Origin: Scyliorhinus canicula
Lineage: Eukaryota
NCBI RefSeq assembly: GCF_902713615.1
Contig: NC_052172.1
Location: 12,504,185 to 12,568,184 of the forward strand
Length of the DNA: 64,000 nt
Direction: 5' to 3'
Each line of letters opens with the position of its first letter. Within the stretch, counting starts at the first letter, position 1. The notes beneath the pieces were generated by a model. It made no database searches and was not told the DNA's origin. It worked only from the letters and a program-made list of their open reading frames with translations. Below are positions 5,715 through 47,988 of this stretch, one piece after another. A program made the translations under genes and the position numbers.

Positions 5715-8700
5715 TCACTGTAACGTGTAATCACTGACCCTCACTGGGGTACAGTTCCTGAAGGCACTGACCCTCACTGGGGTACAGTTCCTGAAGGTGC
5801 TGATTCTCACTGGGGTACAGTTCCTGAAGGTGCTGATTCTCACTGGGGTACAGTTCCTGAAGATGCTGACTCTCACTGGGGTACAGTTCCTGAAGGTGCT
5901 GACTCTCACTGGGGTACAGTTCCTGAAGGTGCTGACTCTCACTGGGGTACAGTCCCTGAAGGTGCTGACTCTCACTGGGGTACAGTTCCTGAAGGTGCTG
6001 ACTCTCACTGGGGTACAGTTCCTGAAGGTGCGGACTCTCACTGGGGTACAGTTCCTGAATGTGCTGACTCTCACTTGGGTACAGTTCCTGAGGGTGCTGA
6101 TTCTCATTGGGGTACAGTTCCTGAAGGTGCTGACTCTCACTTGGGTACAGTTCCTGAGGGTGCGAACTCTCACTGGAGTACAGTTACTGAAGATGTTGAC
6201 TGTCACTGGGGTACAGTTCCTGAAGGTGCTGACTCACTTGGGTACAGTTCCTGAAGGTGCTGATTCTCACTGGGGTACAGTTCCTGAAGGTGCTGACTCT
6301 CACTGGGGTCCACTCCCTGAAGGCACTGACCCTCACTGGGGTACAGTTCCTGAAGGTGTTGACTCTCACTTGGGTACAGTTCCTTAAGGTGCTGATTCTC
6401 ACTGGGGTACAGTTCCTGAAGGTGCTGACTCTCACTGGGGTACAGTTCCTGAAGGTGCTGACTCTCACTGGGGTAAAGTTCCTGAAGGTGCTGACTCTCA
6501 CTGGGGTACAGTTCCTGAAGGTGCTCTCACTGGGGTACAGTTCCTGAAGGTGCTGACTCTCACTGGGGTACAGTTCCTGAAGATGCTGACTCTCACTGGG
6601 GTACAGTTCCTGAAGGTGCTGACTCTCACTGGGGTAAAGTTCCTGAAGGTGCTGACTCTCACTGGGGTACAGTTCCTGAAGGTGCTGACTCTCACTTGGG
6701 TACAGTTCCTGAGGGTGCGAACTCTAACTTGGGTACAGTTCCTGAGGGTGCTGATTCTCACTGGGGTACAGTTCCTGAAGGTGCAGACTCTCACTTGGGT
6801 ACAGTTCCTGAGGGTGCGGACTCTCACTGGAGTACAGTTACTGAAGATGCTGACTGTCACTGGGGTACAGTTCCTGAAGGTGCTGACTCTCACTTGGGTA
6901 CAGTTCCTGAAGGTGCTAATTCTCACTGGGGTACTGTTCCTGAAGGTGCTGACTCTCATTGGGGGACAGTTCCTGAAGGTGCTGACTCTCACTTGGGTAC
7001 AGTTCCTTAAGGTGCTGACTCTCACTTGGGTACAGTTCCTTAAGGTGCTGATTCTCACTGGGGTACCGTTCCTGAAGGTGCTGACTTTTACTGGGGTACA
7101 GTTCCTGAAGGTGCTGACTCTCACTGGGAGACAGTTCCTGAAAGTGCTGACTCCCACTGGGGTACAGTTCCTGAAGGTGCTGACTCTCACTTGGGTACAG
7201 TTCCTTAAGGTGCTGATTCTCACTGGGGTACAGTTCCTGAAGGTGCTGACTCTCACTGGGGTACAGTTCCTTAAGATGCTGATTCTCACTGGGGTACAGT
7301 TCCTGAAGGTGCTGCCTCTCACTGGGGTACAGTTCCTGAAGGTGCTGACTCTCACTGGGGTACAGTTCCTGAAGGTGCTGACTCCCACAGGGATAGCGTT
7401 CCTGAAGGTGCTGACTCACTTAGGCCCACTTCCCTGAAGGTGCTGACTCCCACAGGGATAGTGTTCCTGTAGGTGCTGACTCCCACAGGGATAGTGTTCC
7501 TGTAGGTGCTGACTCTCACAGCGGTGTCTCTCCTGAAGGTGCTGACTCCCACAGGGATAGTGTTCCTGAAGGTGCTGACTCCCACAGGGATAGCGTTCCT
7601 GAAGGTGCTGACTCTCACAGCGGTGCCTCTCCTGAAGGTGCTGACTCCGACTAGGGTGCAGTCCCTGAAGGTGGTGCCTCTCACTGGGGTACAGACCCCG
7701 CTGACTCTCACTGGGGTACCGTTCCTGAAGGTGATGCCTCTCACAGCGGTGTTTCTCCTGAAGGTGCTGCCTCTCACAGCGGGGCTTCTCCTGAAGGTGC
7801 TTACTCCCACTGGGGTGCAGTCCTTGAGGATGGTGCCTCTCACAGAAGTACTGTTCCTGAAGGTTGTGGCTCTCACTGGGGTGCAGTTCCTGATGGTGCT
7901 GCCTCTCATTGGGGTACAATCCCTGAACATGCTGTCTCTCATTTCGGTACAGTCCCTGAAGGTGCTGTCTCTTACCAGGGTACAAATCCTGAAGGTGCAG
8001 AGACTCACTTGGGTACAGTTCCTCACGGCTCTGTCTCACACAGGGGTACAGTTCCTGAAGGTGCTGACTCTCACTCGGGTACCGCTCAAGGCTCTGTCTC
8101 TCACAGGGGTACAGTTCCTGAAGGTGCTGACTCTCACTCGGGTACCGCTCAAGGCTCTGTCTCTCACAGGGGTACAGTTCCTGAAGGTGCTGACTCTCAC
8201 TTGGGTACCGCTCAAGGCACTGTCTCTCACAGGGGTACAGTTCCTGAAGGTGCTGACTCCTACTGAAGTGAAGTCCCTGAAAGAGCTGTCTCTCAATGGG
8301 GTACAGACCCCACCGTCTCTCGTTGGGGTTCAGTTCCTGAAGGTGCTGTCTCTTACCAGGGTACAGTTCCTGAAGGTGCTGATTCTCACTGGGACACAAT
8401 ACTTGAAGACGTTTCCTCTCACTGGAGTGCAGTTCCACAAGGCGCTGAGTCTCACTGGGGTACAGTTCTTGAACGTACTGACTCTCACTGGGGTACAGTT
8501 CCTGAAGGTGCTGACTCTCACTGGCAACCATTTTCTGAAAGCGTTCTCTCTCACTTGGGTAGAGTTTCTGACGGTGCTGACTGTCACTGGTGTACACTTC
8601 CTTAAGGTGCTGATTTTCACTAGGACACAGTTGCTTACGGTGCTGACTCTCACGAGGACACAGTTGCTGAAGGTGCTGATTTTCACGAGCACACTGTTGC

Positions 8701-9420
8701 TTAAGGTGCTGACTCTCACTATGACACTGTTGCTTAAGGTGCTGATTCTCTCGAGGACACAGTTGCTTAAGGTGCTGACTCTCACTAGGAAACAGTTGCT
8801 TACTGTGCTGACTCTCACTAGGACACATTTGCTTACTGTGCTGACTCTCACTAGGACACAGTTGCTTAGTGTGCTGACTCTCACTAGGACGCAGTTGCTT
8901 ACTGTGCTGACTCTCACTAGGACACAGTTGCTTACGGTGCTGACTCTCACTAGGACACAGTTGCTTACTGTGCTGACTCTCACTCGGACACAGTTGCTTA
9001 AGGTGCTGACTCTCACTCGGACACAGTTGCTTAAGGTACTGACTCTCACTGGGACACAGTTGCTTACGGTGCTGACTCTCACTAGGAAACAGTTGCTTAA
9101 GGTGCTGACTCTCACTCGGACACAGTTGCTTAAGGTACTGACTCTCACTGGGACACAGTTGCTTACGGTGCTGACTCTCACTAGGAAACAGTTGCTTACT
9201 GTGCTGACTCTCACTAGGACAAATTTGCTTACTGTGCTGACTCTCACTAGGACACAGTTGCTTAGTGTGCTGACTCTCACTAGGACACAGTTCCTGAAGG
9301 TGCTGATTCTCACTAGGAAACAGTTCCTGAAGGTGCTGACTCTCAGTAGGACCCAATTGCTTATGGTGCTGTCCCTTACTGGCATTCATTTTCTGAAGGT
9401 GCGGACTCTCACTGGGATAA
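5715..9420. repeat. 33-bp minisatellite, about 110 units
   Basis: Unit CTCACTGGGGTACAGTTCCTGAAGGTGCTGACT. Homogeneous at 5735-7380, diverged at 7380-8600, second subtype (…AGGACACAGTTGCTTA…) at 8600-9420. Confidence 0.97.
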
Positions 9421-37009: not shown

Positions 37010-38034
37010 CAGTGTTAATGTGACACTAATAAAAATAATTATGAAATAATTTTCGACTTCGAGATACCTGAGGACACATGATCTAAAGCTTAGTCAAGTA
37101 AGGTATTAAGGAGTATCTTGAAGGAGGAAAGTGAGGTGGAGAGGGAATTTCAAAGCTCATTGCAGCTGAGGGCATGACCACCAATAGTGGAGCGATTAAA
37201 ATCGTAGATGTTCAATAAGATTGGTGGAATTAGAGAATTGGAAGCAGGTATCAGCATTCTGGGTGATACTGTACAATATGCATGGGCAGCACGGTACCAT
37301 AGTGGTTAGCACTGTGGCTTCACAGCGCCAGGGTCCCAGCTTCGATTCCCTGCCTAGTTACTGTCTGTGCATAGTCTGCACGTTCTCCTCGTGCCTGCGT
37401 GGGTTTCCTCCGGGTGCTCCAGTTTCCTCCCACAGTCCAAAGACGTGCAGGTTAAGTGGATTGGCCGTGCTAAATTGCCCTTAGTGTCCAAAAAAAAAGG
37501 TTCGGAGGAGTTAGTGGGTTGGGGGGATAGGATGGGAGGGCTTAAGTGGGTCGGTGCAGACTCGATGGGCCGAACGGCCTCCTTCTGCACTGAATGTTCT
37601 CTGTCTATGTGTAATAGTGTGCGTGACCACTACACATCTTTATACACGTGGCAATCAACTGGAATGAGGTTGTTTTGTGCTTTCAGCAAGGGATAGTTTA
37701 GTCAATCCATGCATAAAAGGCACCCATCCAATGAATTATTGATGAGAGAGCAAGGACTCTTTGGGTCTGTTTAGTGGCTGATCTGCAGGCAGAGGAAGCA
37801 AACAGCTACATCTTAGGTGGCACATTTTCCCTGGAGATTTCATTAAAGGAGCAGATCTCAAGTTTCAAGATGTGGATACTGAGGTCACTCAATGGCCATC
37901 TGCAGAGTTCCAACCTGAAGAACTAGCTTGTGATCTGAGTGATCTTTTCTTTTCTCGTCCCACTCTCCCAGGAGAGCACATCTCCCATCTACTCAGACAC
38001 ACTTCCTGGCTGACGGCCAACAGAGCCAAACCCC

Positions 38035-38986
38035 TGTTGCACGTTTTACTATGGGCGTAAAACGCGTTTATTGGAGTGTATTAACACGCCTCCGAGTTCG
38101 ACGTGTGCTTAACACTGCTAGGCTCTGTTCTATGTAATTATTTAAGCTCTGGAGTCGCCAGCTGCCGTATAGGCAACGTCACAAGTATTCCAAGGTCAAA
38201 TTCAAAGTAATAAAGACGATACACCGATTAGTCAAGTTCAAACGATCAATATTTATTATACAGTTAATAATAAATACTCATGCACACACACTAGGAGACT
38301 AAGCTACAACTAAACATAAGCAAACAGAATACTTATCTAACAGGAACAGGCAAGGTCAGAGAACGAGGCCTTCGTCCTGGTTTTGTCTGCAGCCTTCAGC
38401 AAGCGTTCTGGCACTTGGGAGTCTAGCGGGCTTGGATCGCGTAGCGAGCGTTGAACTTACGGTTTCGGCGGCTGGTGCTCAACGGCTGGAGTCAGGATAC
38501 CAGGTGTCAGTCGGGGCCGGAGCACAGGTTTAACAGACCGGACAACACGAGGTCCCTATCTTTTATAGGGGTTCCGTTGTCCTTCCCTCTTCTCGGGCGG
38601 GCTCTACCTATTGGATCAATTTCTTATCGATACTGGATTAATTCCCCAATGCGAGGGGGTCTCCGTGATGGAGGGGGCGTTTCTTATGTCCTTTTGTTTG
38701 GAGGTTTCTGGTGCCTCGATGTCTGGGTCTTGATTGGAATGTGTCCATTCAGAACCAAATGTATCTATTGTGTGGGTGTTCAAGTCTGATGGCCTCATTA
38801 GCATGCAAAGCGTTTTGCCATTTGCACCTAGCTAAGGTCTCTTCACCTGAGCCCAAACTGGTTTCTGCTGCTGCAGAATGCAAACTGCTCTGTGCAGACT
38901 GCTGTTCTGGCTGAACTGTCTGTTTCTCAGCAGCCTTCCATTTTAGTTTGGCTCAGTGTCCATTTTGCGTGGCCAGCATGGCTACA
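38035..38986 (-). repeat. 3' LTR
   Basis: Direct repeat of 46934-47885 (offset 8899); no difference found by eye, and ORF-track translations within both copies are identical. Confidence 0.97.
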
Positions 38987-38996
38987 TTCCCTCCTT
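38987..38996 (-). promoter_or_regulatory. Polypurine tract
   Basis: AAGGAGGGAA immediately 5' of the 3' LTR on the minus strand. Confidence 0.8.
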
Positions 38997-39314
38997 GTGA
39001 TCCTCACAATCATACTATTGTGAAGGATCACCTATGTACTTTGCCTCCTTGTGTTCTGACCTCTTGCCAGTTCCTGTTCTACTCTGTTCTAAACTATGGG
39101 AAGAAGAGAAAAAAATTTTAACTAACATTTCTACTTGGCCCTATGTCAAAGGGACATGCATTACTACAATTGGGAACCTCTACCTATCACTATTAACCTT
39201 AACCTTAACTTAAACATTTAATCACTCTAAACCTTAACCATTCACACCACAACATCACACTTCCCAACTCGGCAGTCGAGTATGGAACAATATAATACAT
39301 GGCTGAATTTTTAT

Positions 39315-39668
39315 TTACAGAGTGTTGTAATCAGTGAGGGGTTGAGGGGTTTGGTGGAATCCGAAGATGGGGGATTGCACTCTATAGATGGGTGAGGTGC
39401 TGGAACGAGAGGCTCTCCTCTTCCATTTCCTCAACCTGAGGGTCTGCACTAGGATGGTGAGGATCGCGATCACCAACAGTGATTCGATTATGTAGGACAT
39501 GGAGTACCACGTCATGAATTTAGTACACCAGGTCTGAACCTCGCTGATCAGAGCTGAGCACTGGGGGTTTGCTGTACTAACATTTACGGTGGGGGTTGTG
39601 GGGGAAACGTGTCTTGTTTCCACACATATACATATGACATTAAATAGTAATAAGTGGGCTTCCATCAT
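39315..39668 (-). CDS. Small accessory type I membrane protein (~117 aa) in env position
   Basis: First ATGs after a strong acceptor (39772-39771). Hydrophobic N-terminus, NVS sequon, Cys pair, TM helix, RLRKWKRR, Tyr-containing tail. Confidence 0.7.
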   Translation of the reverse strand: MMEAHLLLFNVICICVETRHVSPTTPTVNVSTANPQCSALISEVQTWCTKFMTWYSMSYIIESLLVIAILTILVQTLRLRKWKRRASRSSTSPIYRVQSPIFGFHQTPQPLTDYNTL

Positions 39669-40640
39669 TTTGCTGTTCTTCCTCTTTCTCTTCCTTCTTC
39701 CTCCGGTATTGACAATCCTGGCTTCGACCTCTGTCTCGTCCTTTGAAACCTTTGGGATCAAGCACAGTATCTGTCAATACACAGTTTAAGACCTTTACTT
39801 GTTAGTGCATCTGTCTTTCAAAACCCAATTGACCCTTTAAAATGACTGGCTAAGTCACACCCTGTGACTCCCCTCATTTTTTTTCAAAAAGCGAATTTAA
39901 AGACCAGCATACACCTAACAATCCTTCCTTCTGCGAGCCGTCTCGCAGGCTTTGCTGATTTACCATCCGAATGTTCCCGGATGTAAATAGCATGTGGGAT
40001 GGTGGCCGAAGGGCTACCTAACGTAAAATGAAAACAAAATGTGGAAAGAAACGTCCGAATGAGTTGCGTATGGGCCGCTACGGGTGCGAGTTGGATGGGA
40101 TCCCCGGGTAGGGCGTGCTGTGCCATACCCGAGCTTGGCTGACCAAGGGTTGGTTCTCAGACAGGGCGGGTCCTCAGTGCCGTTTGTCCACTGCCTGAGT
40201 AACCTGGAAAAACGGGTACGAATGTGTTGACCATGACTTGCAGCCTCTATTTCGCCGAATAGAGGGGCACCTAAAAACAATGGAGCCAAGATGCTCCGTT
40301 CTGAAAACAGGGAACAAGTCGTGAACCGTGTCGGTTCACCAGAGGATACAACTGAAGTTCTCAGAAATATCTGCGGACAAGCTATTTGGCGTGTGGCCTT
40401 ACAACTTTGGAAAAGATCTCCAATCAAACCGAAGTTCTCAGAAGTATCTGCGGACAAACTAACGTGTATGTGAGGTGGTCACAATCTTTTCAGCTGAAAA
40501 GAAGATGTCCATCCTCCAGCTGAAACATTTACATTCCTGAAAACAAACAAACATAAAACGAAGACAAACATACGTGCAGGTTCCATCAGAAAGGACATCG
40601 TTTCCCTCAAACGATTCCTATCTTACATCATCTGGACACC

Positions 40641-41678
40641 TCACTTTGATTCTGCCTCTGTGAACAGGGTCACAAAGGGGTTGCCGTGTCGGGAGTCAGA
40701 CACCGTGTCGTCCTGCTCTCCCGGATCCCACACCCTTGTGTGGATCAGGCATGCTATTTTGGAGTTGTGTGACCGGGGGTCACTTTCATCATTGCGGACA
40801 AGTCTGTAGGAATTGTCCCTGTGCCATTGGGTAGCGTCGAGTGTGTTGTCGGGGTAGTCGGGGTCGGGTGGTGGTTCGGGGTTTTTGAGGTAAGTGACTT
40901 CCATGGGGTCACTGGAGTCGGGGTCGTAGGTGGTGCAGTGTGGGCTGTATGGCTGTGTGGTGTCGCTGTCTTCAGAGTCAGTGTCTGTCCTACTGTCTCT
41001 GCTGTGGCAGCTTGTGGGCGTGTCGGGGCGTGGTCTGTAGTGGTCTGTGGGCGGAGTCGTGGGCGAGTCCGTTGATGAACTGGTCTGTGAGGGGGATGGT
41101 GGAAAAGTGTCTCTGGTGGGCGGGGTGAAGTGTTCTGCTGCATCCAGCAGGACATGGTGAGCATGGTTGGCCTGTGTTCCATAAGCCTTTAACTGGTTTA
41201 TATGGAACCACGCGGTCTTCCCATTAGGATACTTTATCCTGTAAACGGAGGGGCTAATTTTGTCCGAAATTGAGTAGGGACCGGAATATTTTGGAGCCAA
41301 AACACTGCTGGGGTTATAAACAGATAACATTACCTGTTGCCCAACCTGGAATTCTGTGGTGTGTACGGTCTTATTGAAACAGGCAGTCCGTTGCTGTCGG
41401 CGTTTCCCTAGCTGGACTGCGGCTGCGAGCTGTGCAGACCTCACAGTCTCAACTAGTTCTTTAACTGCCTTTTCATGTGTGAGGGCCGTCACTTCGGGGC
41501 TTGTCATGTCCAGTCCTGAAAGGAATTCTGTACCTTTCATAGGGCGTCCGGTCATGAGTGTGTGTGGGGTGTATCCTGTCGATGTGGAGACAGTGTTCCT
41601 TATGAACATAAGTGCAAAGGGGAGCACTGAATCCCATGTGGAATTGTTCTCTTGAACCATTTTCCTAAGGGTAGTTTT
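40641..41678 (-). CDS. pol: Pol C-terminal part after frameshift: integrase C-terminus with GPY/F motif and Pro/Thr/Asp-rich extension
   Basis: TTLRKMV…WDSVLPFALMFIRNT…TGYTP…KYSGPY…WFHINQLK continues the integrase core in another frame. Confidence 0.85.
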   Translation of the reverse strand, partial: KTTLRKMVQENNSTWDSVLPFALMFIRNTVSTSTGYTPHTLMTGRPMKGTEFLSGLDMTSPEVTALTHEKAVKELVETVRSAQLAAAVQLGKRRQQRTACFNKTVHTTEFQVGQQVMLSVYNPSSVLAPKYSGPYSISDKISPSVYRIKYPNGKTAWFHINQLKAYGTQANHAHHVLLDAAEHFTPPTRDTFPPSPSQTSSSTDSPTTPPTDHYRPRPDTPTSCHSRDSRTDTDSEDSDTTQPYSPHCTTYDPDSSDPMEVTYLKNPEPPPDPDYPDNTLDATQWHRDNSYRLVRNDESDPRSHNSKIACLIHTRVWDPGEQDDTVSDSRHGNPFVTLFTEAESK

Positions 41679-44600
41679 AGGGTCCGATTCATGCGCTCCA
41701 CAATCCCGCTGGACTGTGGATGATACGCAATGTGGAAGTTCTGTTTGATTCCGAATATTGTCAGGACGTTCCTCATGACCCGTCCTGTAAAGTGAGATCC
41801 CTGGTCCGAATCGATACTTCGGGGTAAACCCCATCTCGTGAAGATGTGGTGGGTCAGGATCTTTGCAGCTGTCTTTGCTGTATTTGTTCGTGAGGGAAAT
41901 GCCTCTACCCACTTGGTAAAGGTATCTATCACCACCAGAACGTATTTATAGCCATTCCGACAAGGGGGCAATGGACCTATAAAATTGATCTGGAGGTTTG
42001 TCCAAGGGCCGTTAACTGGGCGAGTATGCCGAAGTTGTGCCTTCTTAGAATACCTCTCCGGGTTATTCTGAGCACAAATCAGGCAATTCTCAATGTAGTG
42101 CGTTACCTCATTCCTGAGATCAGGCCACCAACAGAGTTGCCTGAGGTGCCTCGTTGTTGCATCAATTCCCTGATGCCCGTGTCCGTCATGGAACAAGGCA
42201 ATTATCTGATTCCTGTCCTGCTGTGGGACCACATAAAGTCGGTCCTTAATGATCACACCCTCATGTGTGGTCAGTGCGTGTTTAAAGTGCTCGTAAGCAG
42301 GCACAAAGTTTCCCTTGAAAACCTCCCTGAGGTCTCCGTCCTGTTTTTGTGCTGCCACGAGATCTTTAATATCAGTCTGTGAGACTTGGACTGCGCTCAC
42401 AGGGGCGCTAGCTGGTGCGCTAGCTGGGGGGGTCCATAAGTGTCCTCTCCTGGAACCTGCCTTAGCCAACGCGTCGGCTTTTACATTCCCAGGGGGTGAT
42501 GACCTATGGTGACTTCTTACTTTTATTATGCCGAAGGTCCTGTCCTTCGCTTTCGCTAAAATATGCTGGAGTAGAGGGGCTGATGGAAGGGGTTTCCCGT
42601 CTGCGGAGACAAAACCTCGTGTCCTCCACAGGGGCAGAAAATCGGTTAAACTGTTACAGACATATAAGCTGTCCGAATATATGTCTGCTGGGCTGGGGAA
42701 AGAATCGGGGTGGTCCACTATGTACGCTATGGCTGCTAGCTCTGCTGCCTGCGCGCCTAAGTGACCTGGTAACTTAAGAGCTATCTCTTCGAGAGCGCGC
42801 CCCTGCGCGTCCTCTACATAGATGCCGCATCCTGTGATACGCTCACCATTTAAAACTGTGGAGGAACCGTCTACATAAATCCTCAAGGGTCCACACGTGT
42901 CTGTGGGCTGGGGGCTTTGTTTCGGGTTCCCTATCTTCCTGGGGGGTGTTTTCGCTAAAAAGGGTCCTGTGTTATGCAGGGGAGCTACAATTTCACAGTC
43001 ATGGGGCTGTCCGGGGTATTGGAGGTTGTCTGCTAAGTATGTGTGGGTGCGTGTCCGTTTTACTGTAATGTCCCGTCCTTGTAAAAGTAGGGTCCACCTA
43101 GCTGCCCTAATCTGGCTAACTGAACCGTCCTTCAGTCGACCGTCTAGTAGTAGCTGTGTGGGTGTGTGTTCGGTCAGAATAGTAATGGGGTTGAGTCCGG
43201 TGATGTATGAGAAATACTGCACTGCCCAGAAGACAGCAAGGAGGTGCCTCTCACAGGCCGAAAATCCTTGTTCTACTGGGTCTAACAGTCGGGAGGCATA
43301 AGCCACTGGTCTTAGCTGCTCGTGCCGTTCCTGAAGCAACACGGCCGAGAGGGTCAGATCGGTGCTCGCTACCTCTATTGCGTACGGTGAAAGTTGGTCG
43401 GGGACTAGCAGCGCGGGTGCTGCACTAAGGGCTCGTTTCAACTCTTCCACAGCGCCTGTATGCTGCGGAAGCCATTCCCAGGGGGCTCCTTTCTTAAGGA
43501 GGTCTGAAAGTGGGGCGGCTTTTGTCGCGAATCCGTCGATGTGGTTCCGACAATAGCCAACCAGTCCTAAAAACGACCGGAGGGCTGATACATTCTGGGG
43601 AAGGGGCAATTTGACGATCGAATCAATTCTTTTGAATTCGATCTCGCGTTTGCCGTGCGTGATGACTGATCCCAAATACATCACTTTACTTTCCAATATT
43701 TGGGCCTTTTTCGGGTTAACTTTACAGCCAATTTCAGTTAAGAGTTCTAGGAGTTCGGCCAGAAGCGAAATGTGCTCTGCCTTTGTGTCTGTCTGCAGTA
43801 GTAGGTCGTCTACATACTGTACCAGACATTCGGGTCGGGAAAATTTTTCTAATCCACTTGCCAGCTGTCGGTGGAAAATGGAGGGTGAATTGTGGAATCC
43901 CTGTGGGAGGCATGTCCACGTGTACTGCTGCGTTTTAAAAGTGAATGCGAATTTGTATTGGCACGCTTTTGCCAATGGTATTGACCAGAATCCATTACTG
44001 ATGTCCAATACCGTGAAGTACTTGGCGTTGAGACCCTGCTTGAGCATGGTCTCGGGACTAGTAGCTACCGTTGGGGCTACTGCGGGGGTTACTTTGTTGA
44101 GTTCCCGATAATCGATGGTCAGACGCCATGATCCATCGGGCTTCCTCACTGGCCAAATAGGGGCATTGTTGGTGGAGGCTACCGTTCTCAGTACACCTTG
44201 GTCCAACAAGCTGCCTATAACTTTTTCTATTTCCACCTCTGCCTCGAGGGGAAATCTATACTGCTTTTGCGGTCGGGGGTCCTGTCCGGTAACATGAACT
44301 TGTCCAGTCATTCTACCACAGTCATGACGGTGACTTGCAAATGCTGTCCTGTGTTTGTTTAGTAGGGCCTTAATTTGTCGGTCGTTGTGGAGTGTAGTCA
44401 GGTCGAATGAGTACTCTCCCACTGCGCTAATCCGATTAGCGTAGTCTCCTACTGTGAGGGTGGCTGGGGCTCTGTCCGATCTCGCCATTCGCCAGACACA
44501 CTGGTTCACTGGGTCGAACGACAAGCTATGAGCGTTCATGAAATCTATCCCCAGGATGTGCTCTGCTGTCCGGGGAAGATTTACTAGAACTACGGGGTGT

Positions 44601-44866
44601 CTTGTGCTAATGTTCCCTAGCTGGATCGCTACGGGTGCTGTGATATGTCCCTGCTGCGAGTGTCCGGTGAACCCGCTAAGTGTGATGGTGGAGGTGGTCG
44701 GCCACGTGTCTGCGTGTGCCGTGGTTGTGGAGTTAATGGTGGTGCGGGATCCTCCTGTGTCCCACAATAACTCTATGGGCTTCCCTTTGACTTTTGCCGT
44801 GACTACGGGCCTCCCTGATGAGTCCCATAGTGTGTCACAGACCCAAGTGGGGGAGCCCGAACACCG
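41675..44866 (-). CDS. pol: Pol: protease, RT, degenerate RNase H (tether), RNase H, integrase
   Basis: LLWDTGGS; LDISNGFW, LPQGFHNSP, YVDD (43805-43816); RPVAYASR; YVDGS…AELAA…YSDS…GNVKAD; HHCC zinc finger; SDQG…E. In frame with gag after a single TGA. Confidence 0.95.
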
Positions 44867-46615
44867 TCAGTTCGTCTCGTCCACATTGGTGGGTCCTGAC
44901 TGTACTGCTACATTGTGGATGGGTTTTGCCTTGTTGCGGTTCAGAGTGCCTGTCTGTTGGCCTCTCTGAGATCGCTGGGGTGCATTACACTCTTTTGCCC
45001 AATGCCCTAACTGTCCACAGTTATAGCATTCCTGTCCTTTCTGTTGTGGGCTGCTCTTGCCTTCATTTACCCATGCGGGCTTCTGGTGCTCTCTGACTGC
45101 TTGGATATCTGCAGCAGCCTGAGCCTCTTCTGGGGATCTAACCTTTGCTTTTGCCTGAAGCGATTGCTCCCAAGCGCGGGACAATCTTTTGAGGACCCAT
45201 TTTTCGTTATGGGCCTCTTCTGAGGGGTCGTAATTATTGCAAGCGCTCTGTCCTGCGTCTGTTGCGTGTGAGATAATTGTGCGCGTCCACTTAACCATGT
45301 TTTCGCGGGTTAAATGCGCTCTATCTAGCTGTCCGAAAACTGCGCTGAAGTGAATCCACAGCCTTCCGGCGAATGCTGTGGGGTGTTCAGATCTCTTCTG
45401 CCTGCACTTATTCAAGCCTTCTACGGGGTCACCTCTATTGTACCCGATGGCATCTAAAATGGCAGTGTGCATCTCCTCTAGGCTGCCTCCTGCCACGTTT
45501 TGTGGGTCGGGGAGGGCTGCCACTACACTCTGGTCTAAGCTCAACACGGTGAGCTTAACCTGCTCTCTCTCATCCAGGCCGTACATGGTAGCCTGCTGTT
45601 TTACTTTCGCGAAGAACTGGTGGGGGTCTGCGGTGGGGAGGAACGGAGTGATCTTTTCACAAGCGTCCCTTAGCTGGGTTACTGTTAACGGGGTGGTGTA
45701 AGTTATGTCTGGGGCGCCTTCGGATTCGGCTTTCCTCTGTGTGGTTACGGGATTCATGGGTGCGGTTATGATCTGAGCTGTGGGGGGTTGGGGTGCCTGT
45801 CGTTTCTGCTGAGCTGCGGGCGCACATGTTCCCTGAACATAACGCTGCGCTGTCTCGCTTAATTCCTGCCAATCTGGGGCGTTTTCCCCATCTAACTGAG
45901 CTCCAAAGGTGCTTTGGAAGCCATTCTGCACCGAAAGCAGAGATTGCAGTTCCGCAATCTGTTTTCTGCATTTCGCGTGGTCAACTGTGCTTTGTCTTTG
46001 TTCGGTCGTTGCAGCGTGGAGTGCTCTCAAAGCTGCTTTGAGATCCGAACATTGCCTCTGCAATGCCTCCACCTGCTTTTCCGATTCCTGTCTTATCAGA
46101 ACGGCACGTTGCACGTCCTGATAGGCTTTCTCATACTGGGTCTGGGAACTGTTCAGATGAGCTAGACAAGACTGGTGAGCCCTCTTGGCATCATCCACCT
46201 CTCTACCCTTCTCTGCCAACTTCCCTTTAAGATCCAGGTTTTCTTTCTCGATGTCCCTGACATCGACCTTACTCATTCGGTTCCTTTCCTCTAAATCTGC
46301 CCGGAGCGTCCTGATGACCTCCTCTGCGCCTCGCAACTGTGCCAAGCAGGACACAATCGCCATCGGCTTGCGTGCTTTACTTAAACTCTTTTTGTGTATC
46401 TGAGAGAGGTTCTCCCACCAAGTATGACCTATACTTCCGGGACCTGTCTCCTCATTTGCACAAAACTCTTTCCAAAGGGGCCATCCCTTTCCCTGCAGAT
46501 ATTTGCGGAGTTCCAGCTCCCACGTGGGACACTGGCCTACTCTGCTACTGCTGCTGGTCGCTGCGACCACAAACCTTTCTGGGTCCATCAGACGTTCCAT
46601 TGCCTGCATGGCCAT
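44867..46615 (-). CDS. gag: Gag (582 aa) with long coiled coil and one CCHC zinc knuckle
   Basis: Intact ORF after the PBS; CYNCGQLGHWAKEC near the C-terminus. Confidence 0.92.
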   Translation of the reverse strand: MAMQAMERLMDPERFVVAATSSSSRVGQCPTWELELRKYLQGKGWPLWKEFCANEETGPGSIGHTWWENLSQIHKKSLSKARKPMAIVSCLAQLRGAEEVIRTLRADLEERNRMSKVDVRDIEKENLDLKGKLAEKGREVDDAKRAHQSCLAHLNSSQTQYEKAYQDVQRAVLIRQESEKQVEALQRQCSDLKAALRALHAATTEQRQSTVDHAKCRKQIAELQSLLSVQNGFQSTFGAQLDGENAPDWQELSETAQRYVQGTCAPAAQQKRQAPQPPTAQIITAPMNPVTTQRKAESEGAPDITYTTPLTVTQLRDACEKITPFLPTADPHQFFAKVKQQATMYGLDEREQVKLTVLSLDQSVVAALPDPQNVAGGSLEEMHTAILDAIGYNRGDPVEGLNKCRQKRSEHPTAFAGRLWIHFSAVFGQLDRAHLTRENMVKWTRTIISHATDAGQSACNNYDPSEEAHNEKWVLKRLSRAWEQSLQAKAKVRSPEEAQAAADIQAVREHQKPAWVNEGKSSPQQKGQECYNCGQLGHWAKECNAPQRSQRGQQTGTLNRNKAKPIHNVAVQSGPTNVDETN

Positions 46616-46910
46616 TTCCTCTGACTCTCTTTTTATAATTTGGAACAGGGGGTTGCTGGGGTGGTGTTTCGTAAAAAGGGTACGGCTTACGCTATTTTCC
46701 GATCACAAAACTACCGAAAGTTTGTCGCAACAAAAAGCTTTCAGTTTTACCTTACAGCCCTGTTAGTACGCATGCACTAAACACACTTCCGAATTTCGCT
46801 TATTATTTTGAACACCTTGAATACTTGTGATCTCTTTCTTTCTCTGCAATTTGGAGTTCTAGTTCAAATTTCAGGGTCCTGGACACTGTGGTGTTTCCAC
46901 TTACAACAGG

Positions 46911-46928
46911 GTCCCGGCGGAGTCGCCA
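46911..46928 (-). promoter_or_regulatory. Primer-binding site, tRNA-Arg(UCU)
   Basis: TGGCGACTCCGCCGGGAC, complementary to …GUCCCGGCGGAGUCG-CCA, which from recall is the 3' end of a vertebrate tRNA-Arg-TCT; 5 nt from the LTR end. Confidence 0.85.
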
Positions 46929-46933
46929 CTAAA

Positions 46934-47885
46934 TGTTGCACGTTTTACTATGGGCGTAAAACGCGTTTATTGGAGTGTATTAACACGCCTCCGAGTTCGA
47001 CGTGTGCTTAACACTGCTAGGCTCTGTTCTATGTAATTATTTAAGCTCTGGAGTCGCCAGCTGCCGTATAGGCAACGTCACAAGTATTCCAAGGTCAAAT
47101 TCAAAGTAATAAAGACGATACACCGATTAGTCAAGTTCAAACGATCAATATTTATTATACAGTTAATAATAAATACTCATGCACACACACTAGGAGACTA
47201 AGCTACAACTAAACATAAGCAAACAGAATACTTATCTAACAGGAACAGGCAAGGTCAGAGAACGAGGCCTTCGTCCTGGTTTTGTCTGCAGCCTTCAGCA
47301 AGCGTTCTGGCACTTGGGAGTCTAGCGGGCTTGGATCGCGTAGCGAGCGTTGAACTTACGGTTTCGGCGGCTGGTGCTCAACGGCTGGAGTCAGGATACC
47401 AGGTGTCAGTCGGGGCCGGAGCACAGGTTTAACAGACCGGACAACACGAGGTCCCTATCTTTTATAGGGGTTCCGTTGTCCTTCCCTCTTCTCGGGCGGG
47501 CTCTACCTATTGGATCAATTTCTTATCGATACTGGATTAATTCCCCAATGCGAGGGGGTCTCCGTGATGGAGGGGGCGTTTCTTATGTCCTTTTGTTTGG
47601 AGGTTTCTGGTGCCTCGATGTCTGGGTCTTGATTGGAATGTGTCCATTCAGAACCAAATGTATCTATTGTGTGGGTGTTCAAGTCTGATGGCCTCATTAG
47701 CATGCAAAGCGTTTTGCCATTTGCACCTAGCTAAGGTCTCTTCACCTGAGCCCAAACTGGTTTCTGCTGCTGCAGAATGCAAACTGCTCTGTGCAGACTG
47801 CTGTTCTGGCTGAACTGTCTGTTTCTCAGCAGCCTTCCATTTTAGTTTGGCTCAGTGTCCATTTTGCGTGGCCAGCATGGCTACA
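46934..47885 (-). repeat. 5' LTR with promoter, splice donor and poly(A) signal
   Basis: Minus strand order: CCAAT (47513-47509), GC box (47494-47500), TATAAAA (47466-47460), donor ACC|GTAAGT (GT at 47359-47358), AATAAA (47156-47151). Confidence 0.95.
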
Positions 47886-47988
47886 CCCCTCACCAGCCAC
47901 AAACTCTTCACGGCTTTTTGCTCGCTGCATCAACGTGGGAGCAGCACCAACCTGGACAGTAGTTCAAAACATTAAGGAGTCTTACAAC

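What the first reader, a model, noticed from the sequence alone, without database searches (positions are those of the whole stretch)
44767..44875. Gag-Pol joined by an in-frame UGA-CGG stop: predicted opal readthrough
Gag ends AAC TGA CGG, and the same frame continues without stops (RCSGSPTWV…GRPVVTAKVKGKPIELLWDTGGS) into the protease with no ATG before the active site. UGA-CGG is an established leaky context in alphaviruses and tobraviruses. Gamma- and epsilonretroviruses read through UAG, and foamy viruses splice pol, so this would be an unusual Pol expression strategy.
Basis: partly seen in the sequence, partly recalled or inferred. Interest (0 to 1): 0.7.

Follow-up and report, generated by a model that had tools for sequence, protein, structure and literature searches.

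The report
Alphavirus-style stop readthrough in shark retrovirus
A young endogenous retrovirus with over a thousand copies, in what is likely a shark genome, keeps a UGA stop codon between its gag and pol genes, followed by the sequence context that alphaviruses use and a predicted RNA stem, so ribosomes likely read through it now and then to make the viral enzymes; stop readthrough itself is already known from other retroviruses.

Summary
On the minus strand, gag ends in TGA (44869-44867) and the same frame runs on into the protease with no ATG before the catalytic Asp. The stop is not a lesion. 1106 of 1109 copies with exact flanks carry TGA. Subfamilies 15-40% diverged keep TGA-CGG while Pol is under strong purifying selection (dN/dS 0.06-0.10). 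Synonymous change is suppressed just 3' of the stop, and a stem-loop is predicted from +12 (one compensatory pair; modest support). Distant related families in the same genome (protease about 30% identical) carry TGA-CTA, the other type II hexamer, at the same codon. The best reading is programmed type II UGA readthrough giving Gag and a minor Gag-Pol (0.85; inferred, not assayed). The element is an env-less, class III-like ERV with an Arg-tRNA primer site, outside gamma/epsilon, foamy and, by AU test, snakehead retrovirus. I found no report of an exact UGA-CGG/CUA signal with a +12 stem in a retrovirus, or of readthrough in this lineage. New variant of a known kind.

The parts
46934..47885 (-). 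5' LTR (952 nt, TG...CA), identical to the 3' LTR
46911..46928 (-). Primer-binding site complementary to the 3' end of host tRNA-Arg(TCT)
   Evidence: sequence; 11 genomic matches to the tRNA 3' end; ARAGORN of 3 loci a tRNA-Arg(tct)
44870..46615 (-). gag, 582 aa from the ATG used here, with a C-terminal CCHC zinc knuckle (about 44987-45031)
44867..44869 (-). In-frame TGA between gag and pro-pol, 36 codons before the catalytic Asp; predicted readthrough codon
44859..44866 (-). CGG TGT TC: type II context and 8-nt spacer, nearly free of synonymous change
44777..44858 (-). Predicted extended stem-loop from +12 (basal helix 44858-44854 with 44781-44777; inner helix 44840-44834 with 44803-44797)
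41603..44866 (-). pro-pol frame: protease (Asp codon 44761-44759), RT, tether (degenerate RNase H), RNase H, integrase; broken by a frameshift in the integrase region in this copy
40644..41945 (-). Frame carrying the integrase C-terminal (SH3-like) part in this copy
39315..39668 (-). Small ORF (117 aa) at the env position with an N-terminal hydrophobic stretch, a second hydrophobic stretch and a basic tail; no env ORF
38035..38986 (-). 3' LTR, preceded on the minus strand by a short polypurine tract (38987-38996)
38031..38034 (.). 4-bp target-site duplication CCCC, repeated at 47886-47889

Best explanation
The TGA at 44869-44867 is a fixed, conserved feature of an endogenous retrovirus family and is likely a programmed leaky stop: most ribosomes would end Gag there and a minority would insert an amino acid and go on to make Gag-Pro-Pol, likely helped by the CGG context and a predicted stem-loop that starts 8 nt downstream. 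Shown: the in-frame arrangement, the fixation and deep conservation of TGA-CGG, selection on Pol, suppressed synonymous change, and the lack of another start. Inferred: readthrough itself, the stimulatory role of the stem, and its purpose (setting the Gag:Gag-Pol ratio as in MLV). The inserted residue is unknown; Trp, Arg or Cys are usual at UGA (recalled).
For: (1) 1106 of 1109 exact-flank copies have TGA. In one search, 114 of 150 listed matches sit in a 1408-codon frame that begins right after the stop, and none is longer (my hand count). (2) Of 61 loci examined, 55 gave an aligned codon and 52 of these are TGA. Among the 47 under 85% identity, 37 read TGACGG and 6 read TGATGG or TGACAG, the forms expected from CpG decay (inference). 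(3) Pol dN/dS is 0.063-0.099 in 5 of 5 comparisons, up to dS 0.98, all with TGA CGG TGT. (4) +1..+36 has 3 sites with shared change against a mean of 14.2, lower than all 266 other windows (21 sequences). Shared synonymous change affects 2 of 7 scorable codons at +1..+9 against 98 of 120 background codons, p 0.005, and 5 of 10 at +1..+12, p 0.03 (37 sequences). (5) The stem from +12 is 95% paired over 23 sequences with a U-A/U-G/C-G switch, against 28-48% for slid controls; RNAalifold finds the same basal and inner helices. (6) No in-frame ATG lies before the Asp in 39 of 39 sequences, and no near-cognate start is conserved. (7) A family with a protease about 30% identical has TGA at the same codon in 8 of 9 loci, followed by CTA in 4 of the 8. 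A further lineage (L071) has TGA CTA and another (L081) has TGA CAG. (8) Three Scyliorhinus torazame Gag models end at the same residue. (9) The anatomy matches type II sites as described in PMC3159437.
Against: There is no direct measurement. Structure support is modest: single-sequence z is -2.0, median z is -1.7 and -1.3, only one pair shows a shared compensatory change, and two of the five measures do not beat shuffles. In the oldest subfamily the 5' arm pairs with a different 3' partner, and pair 33-70 is C-A in 7 of 16. The copies are related, so the p-values overstate independence. Codons around the active site are also low in synonymous change, and part of the conservation may be protein-level. 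One distant subfamily (6 loci) has a sense codon at this position, with TAA eight codons further on in 4 of 6 and no stop at that spot in 2. In Candida Tca2 a gag-UGA-pol junction with a predicted 3' structure did not direct readthrough in a reporter (PMC2194720 abstract).
Confidence: 0.85

Rival explanations
1. Pol is made from a spliced RNA (foamy-like, or a small intron that removes the stop) or from an internal start, and the conserved 3' sequence serves splicing, packaging or the protease N-terminus.
For: The RT lies outside the gamma/epsilon group, with foamy viruses unresolved nearby. An AG at +72/+73 is present in 36 of 39 diverged copies. Tca2 has a minor internal promoter at its junction.
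Against: That AG has only 40% pyrimidines upstream and reads GG in 58 of 60 young copies. There is no ATG before the Asp in 39 of 39. An exact type II hexamer in both of its forms would be a coincidence.
Confidence: 0.08
2. The stop is bypassed on the unspliced RNA by something other than near-cognate decoding, such as A-to-I editing of the codon, selenocysteine insertion or a long-range element, as suspected for Tca2.
For: The sequence 3' of the stop is structured, and some folds pair the spacer with the active-site codons. There is the Tca2 precedent.
Against: No Rfam family matches the region. The context fits type II readthrough without further assumptions.
Confidence: 0.05
3. The stop is a nonsense mutation in a defective founder that spread with help from stop-free copies.
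For: Three sense-codon copies exist, and the element lacks env.
Against: The sense-codon copies are 3 of 1109 and have not amplified. The stop persists across subfamilies up to dS of about 1 with Pol dN/dS of 0.1 or less. No fused Gag-Pol turned up in protein searches (weak).
Confidence: 0.02

Closest known systems
Type II (Beier-Grimm) readthrough sites of alphaviruses (VEEV UGA-CGG, Sindbis UGA-CUA), Colorado tick fever virus VP9, tobra-/furoviruses
   Same: UGA followed by CGG (CUA in sister families), an 8-nt spacer, G at +12, a predicted extended stem-loop and suppressed synonymous change. CTFV has the same nine letters UGA CGG UGU (PMC13517186 Table 1; PMC3159437).
   Different: It sits at a retroviral gag-pro junction. 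The base at -1 is C, not the A of the plant-virus motif. The stem is shorter than in VEEV and has weaker covariation. Untested.
Gamma-/epsilonretrovirus gag-pol readthrough (MoMLV, WDSV)
   Same: One in-frame stop between the NC knuckle and the protease active site; +8G/+9U as in MoMLV; a structure predicted from +12.
   Different: UGA-C, not UAG-G. 36 codons to the Asp, against 27 (MLV) and 40 (WDSV). A stem-loop is predicted, not a pseudoknot (pseudoknots not tested). The RT falls outside that clade.
SSSV, ZFERV and Rhinella marina ERV (UGA junctions)
   Same: An in-frame UGA at gag-pro. The SSSV-like record L175 also reads Arg-Cys after the stop, 35 codons before the Asp.
   Different: Their hexamers are UGAAGA, UGACGA and UGAAGU, not exact type II. 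The SSSV-like RT groups on the epsilon side.
Snakehead retrovirus and class III / clade Huo ERVs
   Same: Shared RT motifs and an in-frame junction (L062: TAG GGC). An Arg primer site and coiled-coil Gag in SnRV are recalled, not checked. Clade Huo is described as SnRV-related, class III and present in all vertebrate groups.
   Different: SnRV uses UAG-G and has env. The AU test rejects the window clade plus SnRV as one clade (p 0.015). The nearest Pol proteins are frog, coelacanth and unnamed ones at 40-45% identity.

Membership tests
Type II stop-codon readthrough site | UGA followed by CGG or CUA | tested here: met
Type II stop-codon readthrough site | Same-frame coding continuation under selection | tested here: met
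Type II stop-codon readthrough site | Enhanced synonymous conservation 3' of the stop | tested here: met
   (p 0.005-0.03; related sequences); one search gave p 0.09 on four-fold sites alone
Type II stop-codon readthrough site | Extended stem-loop after an 8-9 nt spacer | tested here: inconclusive
   Predicted from +12 or +11 in both subfamily sets, with one compensatory pair, a partner switch in the oldest set and weak z-scores
Type II stop-codon readthrough site | Measured readthrough product | not testable with these tools
   Needs a reporter, ribosome profiling or proteomics
Retroviridae-type ERV (class III-like) | LTRs, target-site duplication, tRNA primer site, PR-RT-tether-RNase H-IN order | tested here: met
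Retroviridae-type ERV (class III-like) | RT outside Ty3/gypsy and outside class I | tested here: met
   (Ty3 rows 100/99; SnRV+epsilon+gamma 99/99; window in a 9-row group with frog and coelacanth at 83/95)
Retroviridae-type ERV (class III-like) | Grouping with named ERV-L/ERV-S or clade Huo references | not tested
   No named ERV-L/S, beta/lenti or loki sequence was in the tree
Retroviridae-type ERV (class III-like) | env gene | tested here: not met
   No env-sized ORF after pol in the window or in the 10 other long copies with a readable 3' region, L148-L157; a small membrane-like ORF is there instead
Snakehead retrovirus lineage | RT monophyly with SnRV | tested here: not met
   AU p 0.015
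Gamma-/epsilonretrovirus | RT placement and UAG-G junction | tested here: not met
Foamy virus | RT placement; Pol from its own AUG; Gag without zinc knuckle (last two recalled) | tested here: not met
Lokiretrovirus | Paramyxovirus-F-like env | tested here: not met
   No env ORF; definition from PMC7947760
Lokiretrovirus | RT in the loki clade | tested here: inconclusive
   No natural loki sequence was available for the tree. Two RT motifs of the window occur only in SnRV rows of the paper's supplement (first 300 of 318 pages).

The most novel reading that the evidence does not exclude
A deep retroviral lineage of sharks, frogs and coelacanth, outside gamma/epsilon/SnRV and foamy viruses, makes Pol by stop readthrough and has evolved the alphavirus-type signal in both of its canonical forms (UGA-CGG and UGA-CUA). 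Relatives apparently use a gamma-like UAG-G signal or a relocated UAA. Readthrough would then be the ancestral retroviral route to Pol, with foamy splicing and beta/lenti frameshifting derived, and these fossil subfamilies would record switches between readthrough signal types.
Probability: 0.3. Interest if true: 0.7.

Novelty: new variant of a known kind. Interest (0 to 1): 0.5.

Why it matters
It extends gag-pol readthrough to a retroviral lineage where my searches found no description of it. It gives a retroviral example of the exact type II signal known from alphaviruses, coltiviruses and plant viruses. Readthrough outside gammaretroviruses is described as experimentally unverified (PMC13517186). 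This family offers over a thousand copies and a ladder of older subfamilies, so the signal and its 3' structure are defined by natural variation and can be tested in a short reporter. It also warns annotators that this stop should not be scored as a pseudogene lesion when counting intact ERVs.

Tried and rejected
Lokiretrovirus or Odin as first guess: dropped, because there is no F-like env and the motifs match SnRV rows only; the two papers have no passage on readthrough. SnRV sister group: rejected by AU test; one search returned only the quick tree. One search used a hand-typed structure that was out of register by one column and is discarded in favour. RNA evidence: no holder is on record as RNA. 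In 8 runs of contigs (RNA is a guess) no joint crossed the junction and five listed contigs bridge the stop unspliced. Contigs drop rare forms, so this is not counted as evidence against splicing. The search for fused Gag-Pol proteins found only two Gag-length hits (weak). A single-sequence fold of the protease failed (pLDDT 34). Rfam found nothing at 44600-45000. ESM Atlas gave only sub-0.9 leads for the small ORF. A foamy fetch with P0049 found nothing, as it groups with Ty3 rows. The DNA of frog, coelacanth and S. torazame relatives could not be seen, so their stop codons are unknown. Earlier scan findings: none returned. Literature searches found no report of this family's junction. The library omits most subscription journals, including the original SSSV, ZFERV and SnRV papers, which I did not read.

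Full report
OBSERVATION. The window holds a complete LTR element on the minus strand, 47885-38035. Its two 952-nt LTRs are identical, it has a 4-bp target-site duplication, and its primer site matches host tRNA-Arg(TCT). Gag (CCHC knuckle) ends AAC TGA at 44869-44867, and the same frame continues CGG TGT TCG into protease, RT, tether, RNase H and integrase. The catalytic Asp is 36 codons after the stop and the first Met is at 110. This copy has a frameshift in the integrase region. There is no env ORF. The host is likely a shark, since the closest named Gag proteins (72-78% identical) are from Scyliorhinus torazame; this is an inference.

IS THE STOP A LESION? No. The 30 best DNA matches, one of them the window itself, all carry TGA CGG, as do 29 of 30 further loci, with one not located by the probe. 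An exact-flank census of the own genome gave 1108 places with a T-initial codon and 1 with another first base (AGA). Of the 1108, none is T[ACT]N and 2 are TGG, so 1106 of 1109 are TGA. In one search, 114 of 150 listed matches lie in a 1408-codon frame that starts right after the stop and none is longer (hand count).

DEPTH OF CONSERVATION. Searching with two distant proteases and fetching 20 further places gave a ladder of older subfamilies (tree). One search examined 61 loci. Six were dropped for short or gapped alignment: L086 and L139 (one locus with a junction deletion), L111 (which reads GGA at the stop position), L119, L122 and L126. Of the other 55, 52 are TGA; the exceptions are TCA and two poorly aligned loci at 58-61%. 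Under 85% identity, 37 of 47 read TGACGG, 5 TGATGG and 1 TGACAG; I infer the last two to be CpG decay after insertion. Pol downstream is under strong purifying selection, with dN/dS 0.063-0.099 in 5 of 5 comparisons and dS up to 0.98, so Pol was being made in lineages that carried the stop. Three of the four S. torazame Gag models end at the same residue as the window's Gag, and the fourth diverges earlier. Their stop codons were not seen.

DISTANT FAMILIES. The genome also holds old families whose proteases are 26-32% identical to the window's. In one, 8 of 9 distinct loci have TGA at the same codon (-36), followed by CTA in 4, CAA in 2, CTG in 1 and TTG in 1; the ninth reads TGT CTA. L071, about 50% identical to these, reads TGA CTA, and L081 reads TGA CAG. 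In L079 the Gag knuckle is in frame with the stop, and an independent Gag record (P0133) ends within a residue of the same place. Against a simple picture, a sister subfamily of 6 loci has CGA or GGA at -36; 4 of the 6 have TAA CTG at -28 instead, and 2 show no stop at that spot in degraded, gapped copies. UGA-CGG and UGA-CUA are the two hexamers that define type II readthrough (PMC13517186; PMC3159437). Only 49 of 2297 TGAs in the window are followed by either.

3' ELEMENT. The 36 nt from the stop have 3 sites with shared change against a mean of 14.2, below all 266 other windows (21 sequences, two removed for unalignable flanks). With 37 sequences, shared synonymous change affects 2 of 7 scorable codons at +1..+9 against 98 of 120 background codons (p 0.005), and 5 of 10 at +1..+12 (p 0.03). 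On four-fold sites alone in the smaller set p was 0.09. The sequences are related, so these values are optimistic, and the active-site codons are also low in synonymous change. The window's 150 nt fold into a long stem-loop (z -2.0). RNAalifold on 23 copies pairs +12..+16 with +89..+93 and +30..+36 with +67..+73. My 18-pair version is 95% paired, against 28-48% for slid controls, and pair 33-70 switches U-A (11), U-G (3), C-G (9). Two of the five measures do not beat shuffles. In 16 older copies the same 5' arm pairs with +78..+82, the inner helix remains, and 33-70 is C-A in 7. Median z-scores are -1.7 and -1.3. A helix starting after about 8 nt is therefore predicted throughout, but covariation support is modest. 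An 8-nt spacer and G at +12 are what PMC3159437 describes for VEEV and the tobravirus group.

OTHER ROUTES TO POL. A single frameshift cannot join two same-frame ORFs. There is no in-frame ATG before the Asp in 39 of 39 copies, and no near-cognate start reaches 60%. The best-kept AG (+72/+73, 36 of 39) lacks a pyrimidine tract and is GG in 58 of 60 young copies. The Tca2 case (PMC2194720) shows that a UGA junction with a predicted structure can fail in a reporter, which keeps my confidence at 0.85.

WHAT THE ELEMENT IS. The closest Pol proteins are frog, coelacanth and unnamed ones at 40-45%. In an RT-tether tree of 31 rows (22 of 53 left out as redundant or long-branched), the window falls in a 9-row group with these (83/95). 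That group lies outside SnRV+epsilon+gamma (99/99), foamy (100/100) and Ty3 (100/99). Holding it with SnRV is rejected (AU p 0.015). I call it class III-like. No named ERV-L/S, loki or beta/lenti rows were included and the root is unresolved. Reference labels for IMG/VR records come from their match to published motifs or contexts or from recall.

WHAT IS KNOWN. In-frame gag-pol stops are established for gamma and epsilon viruses and SnRV (PMC1224870). The 2026 review PMC13517186 lists UGAAGA (SSSV), UGACGA (ZFERV), UGAAGU (toad ERV) and UAGGGC (SnRV), and says epsilon readthrough is unverified. I saw TAG GGC in L062, TGA AGA in L175 and TAG CGC in L093/L094. So UGA at a retroviral gag-pol junction is not new. 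The exact type II hexamers, the +12 stem and the occurrence in this lineage did not appear in ten searches of an open-access library.

PAPERS, AS SEEN. PMC13517186: passages and section 4.1.2. PMC3159437, PMC1224870, PMC6001957, PMC8922424, PMC4977317, PMC12193657, PMC10435555, PMC3835772, PMC12440569: passages. PMC9040795: term search with no hits. PMC7947760: parts 1-2 of 4, supplement part 1 and supplement passages. PMC4422223: part 1 of 2. PMC2194720: abstract. Supplements of the other papers were not read and could hold junction annotations. The original SSSV, ZFERV and SnRV papers: nothing.

VERDICT. This is a real, deeply conserved in-frame stop, likely read through by a type II mechanism. 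It is a new variant of a known retroviral strategy. Interest 0.5.

Noticed in passing
window 39315-39668 (-): A small ORF at the env position with two hydrophobic stretches and a basic tail stays recognisable at 98% to 46% amino-acid identity across 7 of 7 copies tested. It has no Pfam family and no Atlas hit at 0.9 or above. It may be a retained small membrane protein in an env-less ERV.
   Followed up: partly
L070, L072, L074, L076, L077, L080: A distant subfamily has a sense codon plus ATG/ATA at the usual stop position and TAA CTG eight codons later in 4 of 6 loci; L068 has both stops. This may record relocation of the readthrough stop.
   Followed up: partly
P0005 (coelacanth gene model), residues just before the protease: It reads Q-G-C-Q at positions -36 to -33, resembling the gammaretroviral UAG-GGN-UGU-CAG context with Gln in place of the stop. 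The DNA was not seen.
   Followed up: no
window 38035-47885 and genome-wide: A very young, large burst: identical LTRs here, over 1100 copies with an identical junction, and about three quarters of sampled copies with an unbroken pol frame, despite no env.
   Followed up: partly
window 44757-44864 (-), alignment A2 columns 6-11 with 108-113: RNAalifold also pairs the spacer with the codons of the protease active site, which are low in synonymous change; this is a possible lower extension of the stem.
   Followed up: no
window 5734-9416: A tandem array of a 33-nt unit, about 112 copies, unrelated to the element.
   Followed up: no
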